DNA of 64,000 nucleotides from Promethearchaeota archaeon (GTDB taxonomy: Archaea > Asgardarchaeota > Lokiarchaeia > Sigyniarchaeales > SOKP01), in NCBI GenBank assembly GCA_048938005.1, contig JBHLMQ010000005.1:50489-114488 (forward strand). The letters run 5' to 3'. Under the pieces are notes generated by a model that did not search any database, had not been told where the DNA came from, and saw only the letters and a program-made list of their open reading frames with translations. Shown piece by piece: positions 27,534 to 35,646 of this stretch. Within the stretch, counting starts at the first letter, position 1. Every line of letters begins with the position of its first letter. The translations under genes and the position numbers were made by a program.

Positions 27534-29063
27534 TTAATTATGATTTATTGTCTCTCCATATCCTATTAATCGATATCGTCTATTAATAATTCTCGAAATA
27601 GCATAAATAAAATTTTCTGGCGGACATATTGGAGGATTTAATTTTATTATAACACTATCCTTTAATATTTTTGTGACTGTTCCTCCTGTTTTTTCTGTAC
27701 CTACAACTAATAATAATTTTTCATTATGTTTAATTGAATGTACTCTGAGCATTTGCTCGGAACCAACTACTCGATCTAAAAGACTTATTTTTAATTTAAC
27801 TTCGTGAAGAACCTCGGGTAAAGTACCTGGTTTTCCAACCAAATGTCCTATTAAATGATCACCCTTAGTTAAAGAAGGATCTAATTTAGTTCCTAAACCT
27901 ATGAGTCCTCCTGGCTTCGCGATATCTAATAAATTACTTCCTTGACTGATACTCACGACTGTAGATTTAATAGGGATATAATCATCTTTTATTCGTAAAC
28001 CTGGGCGTATTTCAATCTGATCTCCAACATTAATTTTTCCTTTTAAAACTGAACCCCCTATTACACCGCCTTTTAAATCTTTAATTTCTTTCCCAGGACG
28101 ATTAATATCAAAAGATCTCGCGATTAAAAATTGGAATTCCCCTTTACTAAGTTCAGGGGATGGAATTATTTCTTCAAATCCTCTAATAACTGAACCTATA
28201 TTTGCTCCAAACACAGCTGAAATTGGTATAATCGGAGCATTTTCAGCAACTGTCCCTTTGATAAATTCCTTTATTTGGTTATAATTCTCGACGGCCTGCT
28301 CTCGTGAAACAGCATCGATTTTATTTTGTAAAATAATTAGATTTTTAATTCCTGCAATGTGCAGTGCTTCTAAATGTTCTCTTGTTTGTGGTTGAGGACA
28401 TTTCTCATCAGCAGCAATCAATAAACATGCTCCATCCATCAATGAAGCTCCACTTAACATTGTTGCCATTAAAATTTCATGGCCAGGAGCATCAACAAAT
28501 GAAATATTCCTTCTAAATTCTAATTGCCCTTTACAATTGGGACATACAAACCGAGATTGTCCTTTTTTCCTTTCCTGTTCAGCTAAGTAATAAGTTAAAT
28601 ACTCATCACAATTCGCACAATATAAAATTGTAGCGTTAGAATACCCTAATTTTATGGAAATGCCTCTCTCTTGCTCTTCTGAATGCCTATCTGTCCAATC
28701 TCCTGTTAATGCTTTCACTAATGTAGTCTTTCCGTGATCTACATGCCCTACTAACCCTATATTACATTCAGCTTGTCTTTTCATCAACTCTTTTATATTA
28801 GAAGATTTAGCTTTTGGCTTTACTTTTGAAACTGTTTTTACTTTAGATTTTGGTCCTTCTTGAATTCCAATTTCTTTAAGTAATTTATTGGCATTTGAGA
28901 TATATTTTTCAGCAGTTGCTTTTCCAACACCCTTAATCTTTAACTTTACCAAATCATCGAGTTTAACATTAGCTAATTTTTCAATAGAATCTATCCCTGC
29001 AGCTTTCATCTTCTCTGCAGTAGCTTTTCCGATACCAGCAATATCTGTTAAATCGTATGACAT
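27534..29063 (-). CDS. eif2g: Translation initiation factor 2 gamma subunit with N-terminal HhH domain
   Basis: QAECNIGLVGHVDHGKTT, ERGISIKLGY, Zn knuckle, DAPGHE, QNKID, RSFDINRPG, RYRLIGYG; N-terminal IAGIGKATAEK and IKGVGKATAEK. Confidence 0.95.
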   Translation of the reverse strand: MSYDLTDIAGIGKATAEKMKAAGIDSIEKLANVKLDDLVKLKIKGVGKATAEKYISNANKLLKEIGIQEGPKSKVKTVSKVKPKAKSSNIKELMKRQAECNIGLVGHVDHGKTTLVKALTGDWTDRHSEEQERGISIKLGYSNATILYCANCDEYLTYYLAEQERKKGQSRFVCPNCKGQLEFRRNISFVDAPGHEILMATMLSGASLMDGACLLIAADEKCPQPQTREHLEALHIAGIKNLIILQNKIDAVSREQAVENYNQIKEFIKGTVAENAPIIPISAVFGANIGSVIRGFEEIIPSPELSKGEFQFLIARSFDINRPGKEIKDLKGGVIGGSVLKGKINVGDQIEIRPGLRIKDDYIPIKSTVVSISQGSNLLDIAKPGGLIGLGTKLDPSLTKGDHLIGHLVGKPGTLPEVLHEVKLKISLLDRVVGSEQMLRVHSIKHNEKLLLVVGTEKTGGTVTKILKDSVIIKLNPPICPPENFIYAISRIINRRYRLIGYGETINHN

Positions 29064-29507: not shown

Positions 29508-31652
29508 ATGGTTAGGTTTTCTTCTAAAAAATTTATCTACTTTTCTATAATCGTTCTAACTCTTTTTCCCCCAGTCAATTTAAGTCTAAGCTACAGCTTC
29601 ATGAATTTAGTAGAGAATAATATTCCAGAAAATATTCGACTTTCTAATGGATATCCAGACGTCGATTTATCAATTCTACCAGATATCGATTATACTTCCC
29701 TAAATGGTCTCTGGTACAATTCTAAAATCGAAATGTTAATTATAACTCCAAATAGAACTGATTTTATTAATGCCGTAAAACCATTAGCCAATTGGAAAAA
29801 TGAGAAGGGAGTTAAAACTATAATATTAAGTAATTTCTCTTTATATGGGGGGGTTGGGGATGATGATGCAGAAAAAATTCGAAAGATGATAAAATCATAT
29901 TATGAAAAAGAAAATATCCAATGGGTTCTTTTAGCTGGTGATGCTCAAAATGATTTAATCCCCATTAGAGAAGTATATAATCCTGATGTACTTAGATGGG
30001 GAGGTGGCCTACATGAGACTATTCCAGGAGAATACGACAAACCTACAGATTTTTATTACGCAGATCTAACTGGCACTTGGGACAGTGATCAAGATGGAGA
30101 TTGGGGAGAAGGGCCACTACCATTAAATTTGCCAGATAATGAATATGGTTTAGATGAGATCTCATGGATCCCGGAAGTATATGTTGGTCGCTTTCCAGCA
30201 GATGATGCTAATGAACTTGAAATTATAGTGAATAAGACATTGAAATATGAGACTAATCCAGAGATAGGTGATTGGATGAATAGAATGCTTCTAGCAGGTG
30301 GTGTTTCAAGTTATAGTGTTTATGGTGATCCCTCAGGGGAATATGAGAGCGCATTAACAAATTATATACAAGAAAACTATGCAAGTTCAGTATTAAACTA
30401 TACTCATTTAGTAGAAGAAGGAGGAAATCTTACTCGTTCAAATCTCATTACTAATTTTAATGATGGATATTCTACAGTATTAATGGCAGGTCATGGAATT
30501 CCAACAGCTTATTATAGAAACCCAAGTGCACAAGGTTACACTAGATCTGATGCAGATAATAGCTTGAATACGTATAAACCTTCCTTAGTGTATATAGATG
30601 CTTGTTCAACATCGAGTTATGATGCTAATGATAATAATTTAGGGGAAACTTTAATAAAAAGACCTGATGGCGGTGCTATTGGAGTAATTGGGGGATTAAG
30701 AGTAACCTGGTATTTTGAAGATGACTTTAATCTTGAAAAATTGAATCGTGGTAATGCTAAATTGTTTTGGAAAGAATTTTTTGACCAAAAAAAGTTCCAG
30801 CAAGGTAGGGCGCTATATGATTCAAAAGTCGCATATATAACTAGTAATTATTATACGGAAGGGTTTGGTTCAACGGATTATGATTTCGAGCGCAAGAATT
30901 TATTAACATATTGTCTTTTAGGTGATCCTGAACTTGATATTTATACCAATAAGCCAAAATTAGCACAGAATCCTTTTACTGAAAATATTTATGAGGGTCA
31001 ATTAGTCTATATTACAATAAAAGATATCAATGGCAAAATTGTACCTTATGCGAGAGTTCATTTAAAAACATCTGATGGAAAGTATTATTCTGTTTATGCT
31101 GATGAAAATGGTCTAGTAAGCTTTCGTTTACCTGCTCAAGAAACCGAGGTGTATAATGTAATAATAACAGGTCACAATTTAATCCCATCCTATTTCAATT
31201 TTACTACACTTCCAGATAACTTTAAGCCTCAGCTCCTTGGAATAGAATGTATTCCTGAGAATCCGATAACCTCGAAAATGTTAACTTTTAATATTGAAGC
31301 TTATGACAATCGTTCAGGATTAGAGTCATCATACATAATTTTATCAAAAAATAATTTTACCGATGTATCTTATTTTGGTTTATCAAATAATTTTGAAGAT
31401 AATAGTGAAACATTTTCCATTGAGGCGGGGAGATTAACACCTGGAGATTACTCTTACTTCATTTTTATGAGAGATTATGCAAACAATACTAACATATATT
31501 ATGATTCAACCTTCCACTTTATTATACCCAAACCTATGATTGATTATATACTACTTGTTTCTATCGTTATGATTATCGCAATTTTAGGAATTTCTGTTTT
31601 CATTATATATAGGGAAATACAAAAACACTCGCATATTGTTAAAAATATGTGA
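29508..31652 (+). CDS. Peptidase C25 (gingipain family), membrane anchored
   Basis: WVLLAGD, TDFYYADL, EVYVGRFP, AGHG (His), DACS (Cys), LLGDP; N-terminal signal and C-terminal TM. Confidence 0.9.
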   Translation: MVRFSSKKFIYFSIIVLTLFPPVNLSLSYSFMNLVENNIPENIRLSNGYPDVDLSILPDIDYTSLNGLWYNSKIEMLIITPNRTDFINAVKPLANWKNEKGVKTIILSNFSLYGGVGDDDAEKIRKMIKSYYEKENIQWVLLAGDAQNDLIPIREVYNPDVLRWGGGLHETIPGEYDKPTDFYYADLTGTWDSDQDGDWGEGPLPLNLPDNEYGLDEISWIPEVYVGRFPADDANELEIIVNKTLKYETNPEIGDWMNRMLLAGGVSSYSVYGDPSGEYESALTNYIQENYASSVLNYTHLVEEGGNLTRSNLITNFNDGYSTVLMAGHGIPTAYYRNPSAQGYTRSDADNSLNTYKPSLVYIDACSTSSYDANDNNLGETLIKRPDGGAIGVIGGLRVTWYFEDDFNLEKLNRGNAKLFWKEFFDQKKFQQGRALYDSKVAYITSNYYTEGFGSTDYDFERKNLLTYCLLGDPELDIYTNKPKLAQNPFTENIYEGQLVYITIKDINGKIVPYARVHLKTSDGKYYSVYADENGLVSFRLPAQETEVYNVIITGHNLIPSYFNFTTLPDNFKPQLLGIECIPENPITSKMLTFNIEAYDNRSGLESSYIILSKNNFTDVSYFGLSNNFEDNSETFSIEAGRLTPGDYSYFIFMRDYANNTNIYYDSTFHFIIPKPMIDYILLVSIVMIIAILGISVFIIYREIQKHSHIVKNM

Positions 31653-32351: not shown

Positions 32352-32359
32352 TTATATAA
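32352..32359 (+). promoter_or_regulatory. TATA box of the 5S rRNA precursor
   Basis: TTATATAA starts about 25 nt before the outer processing stem (32377). Confidence 0.6.
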
Positions 32360-32376
32360 CTGTTAAAATTATCGTT

Positions 32377-32589
32377 TATAACCACATAAATTAGTAGCAA
32401 CTCGCTACTGCGCTGGAACCATCCGAACCCGGAAGTTAAACTTGTCAGCGTTATAGATAGTACTTCAGTTGCGAGTTACAACCCTTTCCGAGTTGTGAGC
32501 GAAATCTGTGGGAAACTATAAACTGTAAGTTCGCTTACGGTCATGGCTTACGAGGATAATACCCGGTCACGCTTGTTTATGTGGTTATA
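32377..32589 (+). repeat. Perfect 14-bp inverted repeat forming the precursor stem around the 5S gene
   Basis: TATAACCACATAAA (32377-32390) / TTTATGTGGTTATA (32576-32589); side hairpin AGTAGC/GCTACT at 32393-32409. Confidence 0.95.
32419..32568 (+). rRNA. rrf: 5S rRNA, circularly permuted, with putative 30-nt intron (32475-32504)
   Basis: CCATCCGAACCCGGAAGTTAA signature, loop E AGTA/GAAA; helices I-V can all be paired, but the conventional 5' part (GCTTACGGTCATGGC...TACCCGGTC, 32533-32568) lies downstream of the 3' part. Confidence 0.92.
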
Positions 32590-32681
32590 CGTGATTAACC
32601 ATTTTAAATTCATCTAAAATTAAGTTTTTATATTATTAATTATATCCTTTATTAATACTGAATAATTCTTTAATTGTAATC

Positions 32682-34051: not shown

Positions 34052-34573
34052 GTGCCTCAGAAGTTTATCTTAAAACTCCTCACAGCAGGGGAAGGAGGCG
34101 TAGGGAAAACCACACTCCTTCATCGCTATGTTGAGGGGAAATTCTCAGCTGAAACGAAAATGACTATAGGAGTGGAATTTTTCCTTAAAGAAATTGAAAT
34201 TGATAGTAAACAGTGTACGTTGCAACTCTGGGACTTCGGAGGCCAAGAACGATTTCGATTTTTACTTGAAAGTTATGTATTAGGAGCAAAGGGAGCTCTG
34301 CTAATGTTTGACCTCACAAGAATAACTACATTAGAAAATTTACAGCAGTGGATTAATATTGTCCGAAAAGGTGACCCAAATCTTCCCGTTCTCTTTTTAG
34401 GTACAAAATTAGATTTAGAAAATGAGATTATGGTAGATGATGATTACGCTAGATCATTTCTTAATGAATTTGATTTGATTGATTATTTAAAAATCTCTTC
34501 GAAGACGGGCGAAAATGTTAGTAAAGCTTTTGATATGTTAACAAGAAAAATACTAGAGCGCCAAGCCTATTGA
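34052..34573 (+). CDS. Rab-like small GTPase
   Basis: GEGGVGKT, MTIGVEF, WDFGGQERF, GTKLD, SSK. Confidence 0.95.
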   Translation: MPQKFILKLLTAGEGGVGKTTLLHRYVEGKFSAETKMTIGVEFFLKEIEIDSKQCTLQLWDFGGQERFRFLLESYVLGAKGALLMFDLTRITTLENLQQWINIVRKGDPNLPVLFLGTKLDLENEIMVDDDYARSFLNEFDLIDYLKISSKTGENVSKAFDMLTRKILERQAY

Positions 34574-35013
34574 AATCCAATATTAATTTAATTATAATCG
34601 ATTCTAATTTCATTTTACTTCCTTTTCAGTTTAAAGTAGATTATATTAATGAAATTAGATTAAATGTTGAAGGAAATTTAAGATTTATAATATTTCAGCA
34701 GGTTTTAAATGAACTAGAAGCTAAAAGAAAAAGGGAACCAAAAGCTACTAAATTTACAAGGTTTCTTGAATCTGGATTATTATATTTAGAAAGAAAAAAA
34801 GTAGATTACGAAATTGAAATTTTAGAGAATGTCAAAACGGATTATGAAACCACTGATGATTTTTTACTTAGAATGTTAAAAATCCTAAAAGAAGAAAGTC
34901 AAAATATATACTTGGCAACTAATGATTCTAAATTGCGTAAAAAGGCAAAAAAAATTGGTATTAGTATAATATTTCTAAGACAAAAGAAATTTTTATCCAT
35001 CGAAAGAGGTTAA
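34570..35013 (+). CDS. PIN domain protein (Fcf1/Utp24-like)
   Basis: IIDSNF, VLNEL, TDDFL, LATNDSKLRKKA, IFLRQKK. Confidence 0.88.
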   Translation: MKSNINLIIIDSNFILLPFQFKVDYINEIRLNVEGNLRFIIFQQVLNELEAKRKREPKATKFTRFLESGLLYLERKKVDYEIEILENVKTDYETTDDFLLRMLKILKEESQNIYLATNDSKLRKKAKKIGISIIFLRQKKFLSIERG

Positions 35014-35130
35014 AAAAATATAAAAAAGTTAGTACATATTAAAGCTTCAACTGAAACTATTAATATTTAATAAACTCAATATTATTCAATATTTGAAATC
35101 TTATTTATTTTTAAGATTTGAACAAGAAGA

Positions 35131-35646
35131 ATGCCCAAACCAATACTCTTAAAAGTAATTACAGCGGGAGAAGGTGGAGTAGGGAAAACAACGCTTCTTT
35201 ATAGATATATAGAGGGTAGATTCCTAGCTGATACACGAATGACTATAGGAGTGGAATTTTTCCTAAAAGAACTTGAAATAGAAGGAGAAAAAATATTACT
35301 TCAAGTATGGGATTTTGGTGGACAGGAGCATTTCAGAAGTCTTTTAAAGCCCTATGCAAGAGGAGCAAGGGGGGCATTATTACTTTTTGATCTTACAAGA
35401 CCATCAAGTTTAGAGAGAATTGAACAATGGGTTAACATTTGCAGGGGAGAAAATCCTGGTATTCCCATCATATTCTTAGGTACTAAATTAGATCTAGTAG
35501 ATCAAATTACATTTGATGATAATTTTGCATTAAAGTTTAAAAAGAAATTTTGGTTTTTTGAATATTTAAAGATCTCCTCTAAAACTGGTGAAAATGTTAA
35601 TTTAGCGTTTGAATTATTAGCAAAAGAACTTATTAAAAAGTTATAA
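35131..35646 (+). CDS. Rab-like small GTPase (paralog of 34052)
   Basis: GEGGVGKT, MTIGVEF, WDFGGQEHF, GTKLD, SSK. Confidence 0.95.
   Translation: MPKPILLKVITAGEGGVGKTTLLYRYIEGRFLADTRMTIGVEFFLKELEIEGEKILLQVWDFGGQEHFRSLLKPYARGARGALLLFDLTRPSSLERIEQWVNICRGENPGIPIIFLGTKLDLVDQITFDDNFALKFKKKFWFFEYLKISSKTGENVNLAFELLAKELIKKL

What the first reader, a model, noticed from the sequence alone, without database searches (positions are those of the whole stretch)
32522..32541. Helix I closed by a UUCG loop: mature 5S may be a covalent 120-nt circle
Seen: the normal 3' and 5' ends are joined with essentially no spacer, ACTGTAAG-TTCG-CTTACGGT. The retained pieces (56 + 28 + 36 nt) sum to exactly 120 nt, the canonical 5S length. 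Established: permuted tRNAs carry a spacer that is removed to reopen the circle. Inference: a tetraloop leaves little to remove, so the ribosome may hold an end-less 5S. The closing pair is G-C rather than the optimal C-G of cUUCGg.
Basis: partly seen in the sequence, partly recalled or inferred. Interest (0 to 1): 0.8.

Follow-up and report, generated by a model that had tools for sequence, protein, structure and literature searches.

The report
Permuted 5S rRNA gene, likely circular
This Asgard archaeon's only 5S ribosomal RNA gene is written in scrambled order with a small intron, so the tRNA-splicing enzymes must cut and re-join it into a 120-base ring, and comparison with relatives suggests, without yet proving, that the ring is kept in the ribosome.

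Summary
Observation confirmed. Window 32522-32541 is an 8-bp helix I closed by TTCG, and the retained pieces sum to 120 nt. The hairpin belongs to a circularly permuted, intron-bearing 5S rRNA gene (32419-32568).

A canonical bulge-helix-bulge (BHB) motif flanks the gene and a second one flanks a 30-nt intron (32475-32504). Cutting after the second bulge base and ligating gives a 120-nt circle with a normal loop C.

My covariance model finds one such gene in 117 of 131 genomes of the same Lokiarchaeia-type family. It also matches 21 loci from 11 other Asgard families. No archaeal canonical 5S was found in the family; the two hits over Rfam's cut-off lie in bacterial rRNA operons, so they are contaminants.

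Helix I is paired in 99% of cells and covaries. The cap is exactly 4 nt in 70 of 74 family matches, mostly UUCG. In other families extra bases extend the helix rather than the loop.

That pattern favours a retained cap, hence a mature circular 5S (about 0.6). No RNA data were available, so re-opening is not excluded.

I found no published report. The closest precedent is the permuted, circular SRP RNA of Thermoproteus.

The parts
32352..32359 (+). TATA-like box (TTATATAA) of a probable own promoter, about 21-28 nt upstream of the outer stem
   Evidence: Sequence. The surrounding block is conserved in same-genus loci. Its role as a promoter is inferred and was not tested.
32380..32389 (+). 5' strand of the outer processing stem (pairs with 32577-32586)
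   Evidence: Perfect 10-bp inverted repeat. It is conserved, with matching changes on both strands, in other loci.
32393..32409 (+). Leader hairpin (6-bp stem, 5-nt loop) between the outer stem and the BHB; function unknown
   Evidence: Folded. A similar hairpin is present in most family loci.
32410..32419 (+). 5' half of the terminal BHB: helix GCG, central helix CTGG, bulge AAC. Predicted cut between 32418 and 32419.
   Evidence: The same architecture is found in 66 of 74 family matches.
32419..32474 (+). 5S segment 1 (56 nt): rest of loop C, 3' strands of helices III and II, 5' strands of helices V and IV, most of loop D
   Evidence: Rfam alignment, alignment A1 and pair counts.
32475..32504 (+). 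30-nt BHB intron in loop D (central helix TTGC/GCGA, bulges GAG and AAT, 7-bp inner helix)
   Evidence: outer helix 3 bp, inner 7 bp. The stretch is absent, with exactly these borders, in 17 of the 23 aligned same-genus loci.
32505..32529 (+). 5S segment 2 (25 nt): last loop D base, 3' strands of helices IV and V, 3' strand of helix I
32530..32533 (+). TTCG cap joining the native 3' and 5' ends of the 5S (the finding)
   Evidence: The cap is 4 nt in 70 of 74 family matches.
32534..32568 (+). 5S segment 3 (35 nt): helix I 5' strand, loop A, helix II 5' strand, loop B, helix III 5' strand, first two loop C bases
32563..32572 (+). 3' half of the terminal BHB: central helix CCGG (also the helix III 5' strand), bulge TCA, helix CGC. 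Predicted cut between 32568 and 32569.
32577..32586 (+). 3' strand of the outer processing stem
32625..32629 (+). T5 run, a possible archaeal terminator
   Evidence: A run of 5 or more T lies within 110 nt downstream in 66 of 74 matches. Its role is inferred.

Best explanation
Window 32380-32630 is the organism's 5S rRNA gene in circularly permuted order. The transcript reads: leader; the 3' two-thirds of 5S, interrupted by a 30-nt intron; helix I closed by UUCG; the 5' third of 5S; trailer. Leader and trailer pair into a long stem that presents a canonical BHB motif. The archaeal splicing endonuclease (two genes in this genome) cuts after the second base of each 3-nt bulge, at 32418/32419 and 32568/32569. 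It cuts the intron's own BHB at 32474/32475 and 32504/32505. RtcB ligase, also encoded, joins 32568 to 32419, which rebuilds loop C, and joins 32474 to 32505. The product is a 120-nt covalent circle with the normal 5S fold, in which the usual free ends of helix I are replaced by a tetraloop. I think this circle is the mature form that enters the 50S subunit. Shown here: gene order, motifs, conservation, covariation, presence of the enzymes, and the lack of any other archaeal 5S gene. Inferred: transcription limits, cleavage, ligation, and above all that the cap is never re-opened.
For: 1. Permutation. In genomic order Rfam scores only 30.1 bits (cut-off 38), with helices I and II mispaired. 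The computed 120-mer, rotated to start at 32534, aligns to four canonical 5S genes of the sister family with 71-78 identical columns (score 80-97). In genomic order the values are 63-68 columns (score 25-34). It folds as a three-way junction, both as a circle and as a linear molecule.
2. Structure. On 23 same-genus loci 95.8% of cells pair and 13 of 35 pairs change on both sides; slid controls give at most 5 such pairs. The results on 74 and 21 matches are similar.
3. BHB. A strict motif (4-bp helix, 3-nt bulges, outer helix of at least 2 bp) bounds 66 of 74 family matches. It predicts circles of 119-123 nt (43 matches) or 149-153 nt (23 matches, which carry one insert of about 30 nt). Five more matches fit with one mismatch or another central helix.
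4. Three different break points exist: in loop C (14 matches), after the helix III 3' strand (52 matches), and in loop B (1 match, family f3). All give the same collinear 5S under the same cut rule. The stretch created by ligation at the window's break point stands uninterrupted in the genes with the other break point and in 7 canonical 5S genes of GC-rich metagenome contigs.
5. Intron. Its borders coincide with intron-less relatives.
6. Sole 5S. The window locus is the genome's only RF00001 match at E <= 1. Model R1 matches 117 of 131 family genomes and 0 of 14 in the sister family. RF00001 exceeds its cut-off in only 2 of 131 family genomes, and both hits lie in bacterial rRNA operons. Eight family genomes have a full-length 23S (model positions 1-2987); their only RF00001 matches lie on other contigs.
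7. Enzymes. Two splicing-endonuclease genes and RtcB at 568 bits.
8. Cap retained. It is 4 nt in 70 of 74 matches: UUCG 42, UACG 4, UCCG 3, and others mostly U..G. In 21 loci of 11 other families helix I is 7-13 bp, and the loop is 4 nt in 17 and 3 or 5 nt in 4, including UUCG in 10 and GUAA in 1. The outer three pairs of helix I covary freely.
9. E. coli ribosomes with the native 5S ends joined by a 4-nt connector support growth (PMC7283268, passages). The Thermoproteus permuted SRP RNA matures as a circle through the same machinery (PMC4731332, abstract and passages).
Against: There are no RNA data of any kind. No cleavage, junction read or circle has been observed.

Known relatives of the mechanism often re-open the circle. 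Permuted tRNAs do (search listing). Circular pre-16S and pre-23S do in M. maripaludis, where a structure-dependent endonuclease cuts near helix 1 of 23S (PMC10515664, abstract).

Four loci of one genus carry 34-35 nt at the cap without a strict BHB, and helix I length varies from 7 to 13 bp between families. The tip therefore looks dispensable and could be trimmed.

Most genomes are metagenome bins. rRNA regions are often unassembled, and one 'single-contig' relative has N gaps. A second 5S gene hidden in a gap cannot be strictly excluded.

The A2 and A3 alignments were fitted to the model.

My cut rule (after bulge base 2) is deduced from a review passage about tRNA (PMC4090602) and from its self-consistency here. 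It is not an assay.
Confidence: 0.6

Rival explanations
1. Circular intermediate, linear end product. The gene is permuted and circularised as described, but an endonuclease then opens the circle in or beside the cap, perhaps with trimming. The ribosome would hold an ordinary linear 5S with a helix I of about 8 bp, as happens with permuted tRNAs.
For: Permuted tRNA circles are re-opened (review listed; my knowledge of Soma et al. 2007 is recalled). Circular pre-16S and pre-23S are linearised by endonucleases in M. maripaludis (abstract). Helix I length varies from 7 to 13 bp among families, and four loci have 34-35 nt at the tip, so the tip tolerates change. An opened molecule would resemble the sister family's 5S, which has a 9-bp helix I plus one overhanging base.
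Against: The cap keeps 4 nt in 70 of 74 family matches and 17 of 21 distant ones, and is mostly UNCG, a compact loop that is a poor nuclease target. Extra bases extend the helix instead of forming a spacer. No sequence near the cap is conserved beyond pairing. 5S needs no free end. A pathway that circularises only to cut again at the old ends would need an extra, unknown enzyme across at least 12 families.
Confidence: 0.23
2. Linear permuted 5S. The BHB is cut but the ends are not ligated, or only the intron exons are. The mature RNA would be a linear molecule with its ends in the loop C / helix III region and a closed helix I, comparable to the permuted mitochondrial 5S of brown algae.
For: Brown-algal mitochondrial 5S is permuted in the final product, with helix I replaced by a hairpin (PMC4267664, passages). 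In that case the closed cap would also be retained.
Against: The three break points all give one collinear sequence only if the ends are ligated. The break lies in the most conserved part of 5S. The endonuclease products are the normal substrates of RtcB, which must act anyway to splice the intron. In the passages I read, BHB-excised RNAs are circularised.
Confidence: 0.09
3. Conventional or decayed gene. The locus is an ordinary linear 5S gene at 32384-32531, as Rfam aligns it, or a pseudogene, and the hairpin at 32522-32541 is incidental.
For: Rfam gives a full-length alignment in genomic order (30.1 bits, E = 0.0004). Hairpins of this size are common by chance.
Against: That reading mispairs helices I and II and falls below the cut-off. 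It is impossible for the 52 loci whose loop C lies downstream. The permuted structure has strong covariation. It is the only 5S-like locus in the genome, and one copy is conserved in 117 of 131 family genomes.
Confidence: 0.02

Closest known systems
Permuted, circular SRP RNA of Thermoproteus tenax (Plagens et al. 2015, PMC4731332; abstract and passages read)
   Same: The non-coding RNA gene was undetectable by standard models because it is permuted. Leader and trailer form a BHB. The tRNA-splicing endonuclease defines the ends, and ligation restores a conserved loop. The mature RNA is a circle.
   Different: The RNA here is 5S rRNA, a ribosome component. The trait spans many families of a phylum rather than one genus, the break point differs between lineages, and the genes also carry introns. 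For SRP RNA the circle was shown by RNA-seq, Northern blot and enzyme assay; here nothing is shown at the RNA level.
Circularly permuted tRNA genes (Cyanidioschyzon merolae; Thermofilum) (PMC3978253 and PMC3218864: search listing only; details recalled)
   Same: The 3' half lies upstream of the 5' half, the termini carry a BHB, a circular intermediate forms, and some genes combine introns with permutation.
   Different: tRNA circles must be re-opened by RNase P and tRNase Z because the acceptor end must be free, and their intervening sequence is a removable spacer. Here the joint is a tight 4-nt hairpin cap and no free end is needed.
Engineered E. coli 23S-cp5S ribosomes (Huang et al. 2020, PMC7283268; passages read)
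   Same: The native 5S ends are linked by a 4-nt connector and the molecule is opened in loop C or loop D, nearly the design found here in nature. The ribosomes are active and the cells viable.
   Different: That construct is artificial and bacterial. The cp5S is grafted into 23S rRNA and is not a free circle.
Circular or permuted large rRNAs of archaea (PMC12918454, passages read; PMC7758197 and the T. barophilus preprint, listing only)
   Same: BHB-dependent circularisation of an rRNA. The 2026 paper claims that the circle (23S) sits in mature ribosomes.
   Different: Those genes are collinear and the permutation or circle arises only at the RNA level. That paper states that 5S rRNAs are not processed this way.
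Permuted mitochondrial 5S rRNA of brown algae (Valach et al. 2014, PMC4267664; passages read)
   Same: Natural 5S with helix I closed as a hairpin and the ends elsewhere.
   Different: It is organellar, linear and permuted in the final product. There is no BHB, no ligation and no intron, and the ends lie at the three-way junction.
Low-level circular 5S RNA in Sulfolobus and Halobacterium (Danan et al. 2012, PMC3326292; passages read)
   Same: End-joined 5S circles of about 123 nt, enriched by RNase R, exist in archaea.
   Different: They are minor species from a normal gene, were not validated by RT-PCR, and may be degradation or processing by-products. Here the circle would be the obligatory product.

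Membership tests
5S rRNA (Rfam RF00001) | Score at or above the curated cut-off (38 bits) on the gene as it lies in the DNA | tested here: not met
   30.1 bits, with helices I and II mispaired. This is expected for a permuted gene, because the model cannot read a rotated order.
5S rRNA (Rfam RF00001) | Three-way junction with helices I-V, supported by covariation, and sequence homology to canonical 5S once the order is restored | tested here: met
   Pair counts. The rotated 120-mer shares 71-78 identical columns with four sister-family 5S genes, and its fold has the 5S shape. I could not score the rotated sequence with the Rfam model itself.
5S rRNA (Rfam RF00001) | It is the genome's 5S gene (no other copy) | tested here: met
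   It is the only RF00001 match in G000 at E <= 1. 0 of 131 family genomes have an archaeal canonical 5S. Caveat: these are bins with gaps.
Substrates of the archaeal splicing endonuclease (BHB motif) | 4-bp central helix flanked by two 3-nt bulges on opposite strands, with flanking helices | tested here: met
   Terminal motif at 32410-32419 and 32563-32572, and intron motif at 32466-32475 and 32499-32508. The definition is from PMC4090602.
Substrates of the archaeal splicing endonuclease (BHB motif) | Endonuclease and RtcB ligase are encoded by the organism | tested here: met
   PF01974 at two loci, 104.7 and 73.8 bits. PF01139 at 568 bits.
Substrates of the archaeal splicing endonuclease (BHB motif) | Cleavage at the bulges and ligation of the products are observed | not testable with these tools
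   No RNA run was listed, and the metagenome scan returned only DNA-like contigs.
Circularly permuted non-coding RNA genes matured through a circle | The 3' part is encoded upstream of the 5' part, the native ends are joined by a short linker, and the new ends lie in a BHB | tested here: met
Circularly permuted non-coding RNA genes matured through a circle | Circular RNA detected (junction reads, RNase R resistance) | not testable with these tools
   One search listed no RNA holder.
UNCG tetraloop | Loop U-N-C-G, ideally closed by C-G | tested here: inconclusive
   The window has UUCG closed by G-C. In the family 49 of 70 four-base caps are UNCG (UUCG 42, UACG 4, UCCG 3), and the closing pair is C-G in 17 of 69 distinct sequences. 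The UUUG and UUAG variants (16 of 70) do not fit the class.

The most novel reading that the evidence does not exclude
In at least a dozen Asgard families, including the large Lokiarchaeia-type family of this window, the ribosome carries a covalently closed, end-less 5S rRNA. It would be made from a permuted and often intron-bearing gene by the tRNA-splicing endonuclease and RtcB. That would make these enzymes essential for ribosome biogenesis, and the break point of the permutation would have migrated during evolution because the ligated product, not the gene order, is under selection.
Probability: 0.55. Interest if true: 0.92.

Novelty: new variant of a known kind. Interest (0 to 1): 0.85.

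Why it matters
5S rRNA is regarded as a universally linear RNA of about 120 nt that is easy to annotate. This case bears on three points.

1. It explains why 5S genes go undetected in many Asgard genomes. A 2022 paper on closed Asgard genomes states that 5S 'could not be predicted' (PMC8813620, methods passage).

2. It extends BHB-dependent circularisation to the third rRNA. A 2026 paper still describes 5S as exempt from this pathway.

3. It offers a natural test of whether a ribosome can use an end-less 5S.

It also gives annotators a working covariance model and a simple cut rule. Finally, it shows that archaeal splicing enzymes allow genes to be permuted, and their break points to drift, without loss of function.

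Tried and rejected
- RNA evidence: the look-up of sequencing runs listed no RNA holder, so read laying could not be used.
- Metagenome scan with a 23-nt stretch of the window, hoping for RNA-derived contigs that cross the ligation junction. All 33 hits lie on contigs of 1.8 kb to 1.9 Mb. 26 are permuted genes broken in loop C and 7 are canonical 5S genes of other archaea. None shows a junction.
- 'Complete' relatives as proof of a single 5S. The single-contig genomes G006 and G022 show only the permuted locus. However, G022 has 100-N gaps, one of which swallows most of its 16S, so I do not count them as closed genomes.
- LSU search on 150 genomes failed. I repeated it on 41.
- Strict BHB search at the 34-35-nt cap inserts of four loci found none. 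Their folds differ. I leave open whether they are relaxed introns or retained extensions.
- My strict BHB script left 8 of 74 family matches unresolved (5 were recovered). It picked a terminal motif with a long outer helix for 12 of 21 phylum-level matches. The f3 locus was resolved, and 3 more have one mismatch. That leaves 5 of 21 unresolved, and in at least one of them a hairpin is inserted between the outer stem and the motif. One family pick (L061) is probably the wrong one of two candidates.
- The hairpin alone as a signal is not above chance.
- The linear Rfam reading is rejected (see rivals).
- I could not score the rotated sequence against RF00001, because the Rfam tool reads only stored DNA.
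- Literature searches found no report of a permuted or obligatorily circular archaeal 5S. Subscription-only papers are not covered.

Full report
**What is at the coordinates.** Window 32522-32541 reads as an 8-bp stem (one G.U) closed by TTCG. Rfam finds nothing in the 64-kb window at gathering thresholds. A sensitive scan gives one sub-threshold 5S match, 32384-32531, at 30.1 bits against a cut-off of 38, with helices I and II mispaired. It is the only RF00001 match in the 3.7-Mb genome.

Neighbouring genes (aIF2-gamma, Ras-family GTPases), two splicing-endonuclease genes and earlier notes of this scan indicate a Lokiarchaeia-type Asgard archaeon.

**The gene is circularly permuted.**
- Read in genomic order, the locus holds the 3' two-thirds of 5S, then the native 3' end, four bases, the native 5' end, and the 5' third of 5S.
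- The minimum-energy fold of 32370-32600 shows this shape inside a long leader-trailer stem (z = -3.6).
- I computed the 120-mer from the window without typing it and rotated it to start at 32534. It aligns to four canonical 5S genes of the sister family with 71-78 identical columns and scores of 80-97. In genomic order the values are 63-68 columns and scores of 25-34. It folds into the 5S three-way junction.

**Two BHB motifs give exact boundaries.**
- Next to the outer stem (32380-32389 with 32577-32586) lie helix GCG/CGC, a 4-bp helix CTGG/CCGG and two 3-nt bulges (32417-32419, 32567-32569).
- A second motif surrounds a 30-nt insert. It has outer helix CAG/CTG, central helix TTGC/GCGA, bulges 32473-32475 and 32503-32505, and a 7-bp inner helix.
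- A review passage says that in pre-tRNA the first two anticodon bases lie in the central helix (PMC4090602). This places each cut after the second bulge base.
- Applying that rule gives an excised RNA of 32419-32568 (150 nt) and an intron of 32475-32504.
- The intron borders coincide with relatives that lack it: 17 of 23 aligned same-genus loci.

**Comparative evidence.**
- DNA similarity finds the locus in 23 of 24 same-genus genomes.
- On 23 aligned cores 95.8% of cells pair and 13 of 35 pairs change on both sides; slid controls give at most 5.
- A covariance model built from them (R1) matches 117 of 131 genomes of the family, 0 of 14 of the sister family, 1 of 1 of f3 and 0 of 4 of f4.
- I then examined 73 loci: 60 newly fetched plus 13 of the first 25. 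They gave 74 matches.
- A strict BHB bounds 66 of the 74. It predicts circles of 119-123 nt (43) or 149-153 nt (23, with one insert). Five more fit with one mismatch or a different central helix.

**The break point differs between lineages.**
- It lies in loop C in 14 matches, including the window.
- It lies just after the 3' strand of helix III in 52 matches.
- It lies in loop B in the f3 genome.
- With the same cut rule all three yield one collinear 5S.
- The stretch that ligation would create in the window stands uninterrupted in genes with the other break point. It also stands uninterrupted in 7 canonical 5S genes on GC-rich metagenome contigs.
- I regard this as the strongest argument that the ends are ligated.

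**Inserts.** They occur at three BHB-bounded sites: loop D; helix IV, six bases upstream of the first site; and loop C.

**It is the only 5S gene.**
- RF00001 exceeds its cut-off in 2 of 131 family genomes. Both hits sit in bacterial rRNA operons, one beside a 23S with a group I intron, so they are contaminant contigs.
- The sister family has canonical genes in 12 of 14 genomes.
- Of 41 family genomes searched, 8 have a full-length 23S (model positions 1-2987). Their only RF00001 matches lie on other contigs, so 5S is not hidden behind 23S.
- Caveat: these are bins, and one 'single-contig' relative has N gaps.

**Spread in the phylum.**
- In a sample of 151 Asgard genomes RF00001 passes its cut-off in 49. 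These are mostly in families f9 (26 of 26 genomes have a match) and f14 (17 of 19).
- Many other families give only weak hits, often two adjacent ones.
- R1 with filters off matches 18 of 19 such loci end to end.
- With three others, this makes 21 loci from 11 further families.
- Of those 21, 13 have a strict BHB with the canonical motif. In 11 the outer helix is 10-15 bp; in the other two it is 5 and 3 bp. The predicted circles are 121-129 nt.
- Three more have one mismatch in the central helix and circles of 122-131 nt. Five are unresolved.
- R1 gave no match in the canonical families f9 (0 of 26) and f14 (0 of 19), so it does not simply pick up ordinary 5S genes.

**Is the cap kept?** The question cannot be settled without RNA.

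Evidence for retention:
- The loop is 4 nt in 70 of 74 family matches. UUCG accounts for 42, UUUG 8, UUAG 8, UACG 4, UCCG 3 and five other sequences one each.
- The loop length is kept while the two middle bases change even between close species.
- Elsewhere the mature part tolerates 1-2-nt indels, since circles range over 119-123 nt.
- In the other families helix I is 7-13 bp and the loop is 4 nt in 17 of 21, 3 nt in 2 and 5 nt in 2. Ten of these are UUCG and one is GUAA. Extra bases therefore become pairs, not spacer.
- Helix I is paired in 99.3% and 99.4% of cells. The inner five pairs are nearly constant within the window's family and are partly shared with the sister family's canonical helix I. 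That helix has 9 bp plus one overhanging base, so the circle has almost the same number of bases.
- Nothing near the cap is conserved beyond pairing.
- Function does not need free ends. E. coli lives with 5S whose native ends are joined by a 4-nt connector and which is opened in loop C or D (PMC7283268).
- The same enzymes make a mature circular SRP RNA in Thermoproteus (PMC4731332).

Evidence against retention:
- Permuted tRNAs and circular pre-16S and pre-23S are re-opened in studied species.
- The tip varies in length and, in one genus, carries about 30 extra bases.

I put the retained circle at about 0.6, re-opening at about 0.23, unligated ends at about 0.09, and a conventional gene or pseudogene at about 0.02.

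**Literature.**
- Five searches found no report of a permuted or obligatorily circular archaeal 5S.
- A 2026 paper states that 16S and 23S, 'but not 5S rRNAs', are processed through circles (passage).
- A 2022 paper on closed Asgard genomes could not predict 5S genes (passage).
- Low-level 5S circles were seen in Sulfolobus and Halobacterium (passages).
- Earlier notes of this scan describe BHB introns in 5S genes of other archaea, but no permutation.

**Verdict.** It is one part of a larger feature that appears to be undescribed: permuted 5S rRNA genes that depend on the tRNA-splicing machinery. This is a new variant of a known kind, the closest precedent being the Thermoproteus SRP RNA. The circle as the mature form is the favoured reading but remains unproven.

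Noticed in passing
window 32393-32409: A 6-bp hairpin with a 5-nt loop sits in the leader between the outer stem and the BHB. A similar hairpin recurs in most family loci. It would end up in the ligated leader-trailer by-product. Its role is unknown.
   Followed up: no
L084, L090, L091, L086 (genomes G062, G122, G131, G080; one genus): The helix I cap carries 34-35 nt instead of 4, folding as an extra hairpin without a strict BHB. It is either a relaxed intron or a retained extension of helix I. Four other loci fetched from the same genus (L085, L087, L088, and the main match in L089) have a plain 4-nt cap.
   Followed up: partly
L020/L021 versus L110 and L141: The loop D introns of two genes broken after helix III resemble those of two metagenome genes broken in loop C. 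The intron is therefore either older than the shift of the break point or moves between genes.
   Followed up: no
L089:929-1037 (G115:C109): A second, degenerate copy lies about 780 nt downstream of the intact gene (34.7 bits). Its 3' part is well kept and its 5' part has decayed. G014 and G174 each have two loci.
   Followed up: no
L040 (G076:C68) and L144 (G094:C263): The canonical 5S hits in two family bins sit in bacterial rRNA operons, so these are contaminant contigs. The 23S in L040 holds a group I intron.
   Followed up: yes
L143 (G022:C1:864000-878000): The 'single-contig' relative has 100-N scaffold gaps. Only the last 124 nt of its 16S are present, followed by an intron-sized tRNA match of 102 nt, and no 23S lies within the fetched stretch, which runs about 5.8 kb further downstream.
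   Followed up: partly
L164 (G263:C2:29256-29407, a family with canonical 5S): A 152-nt sub-threshold RF00001 match (32.4 bits) that does not fit the permuted model. It may be a canonical 5S with an insert.
   Followed up: no
window 27534-29063 (-): The aIF2-gamma homologue is 509 aa and carries an N-terminal helix-hairpin-helix domain (residues 4-53) ahead of the GTPase domain. This may be a fusion or an upstream start call.
   Followed up: no
window 34052-35646 (+): Two Ras-family small GTPase genes flank a PIN-domain gene. A 714-aa peptidase C25 (gingipain-type) gene lies at 29508-31652.
   Followed up: no
window 1-64000: No tRNA gene (ARAGORN) and no Rfam match at gathering thresholds in 64 kb.
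   Followed up: no
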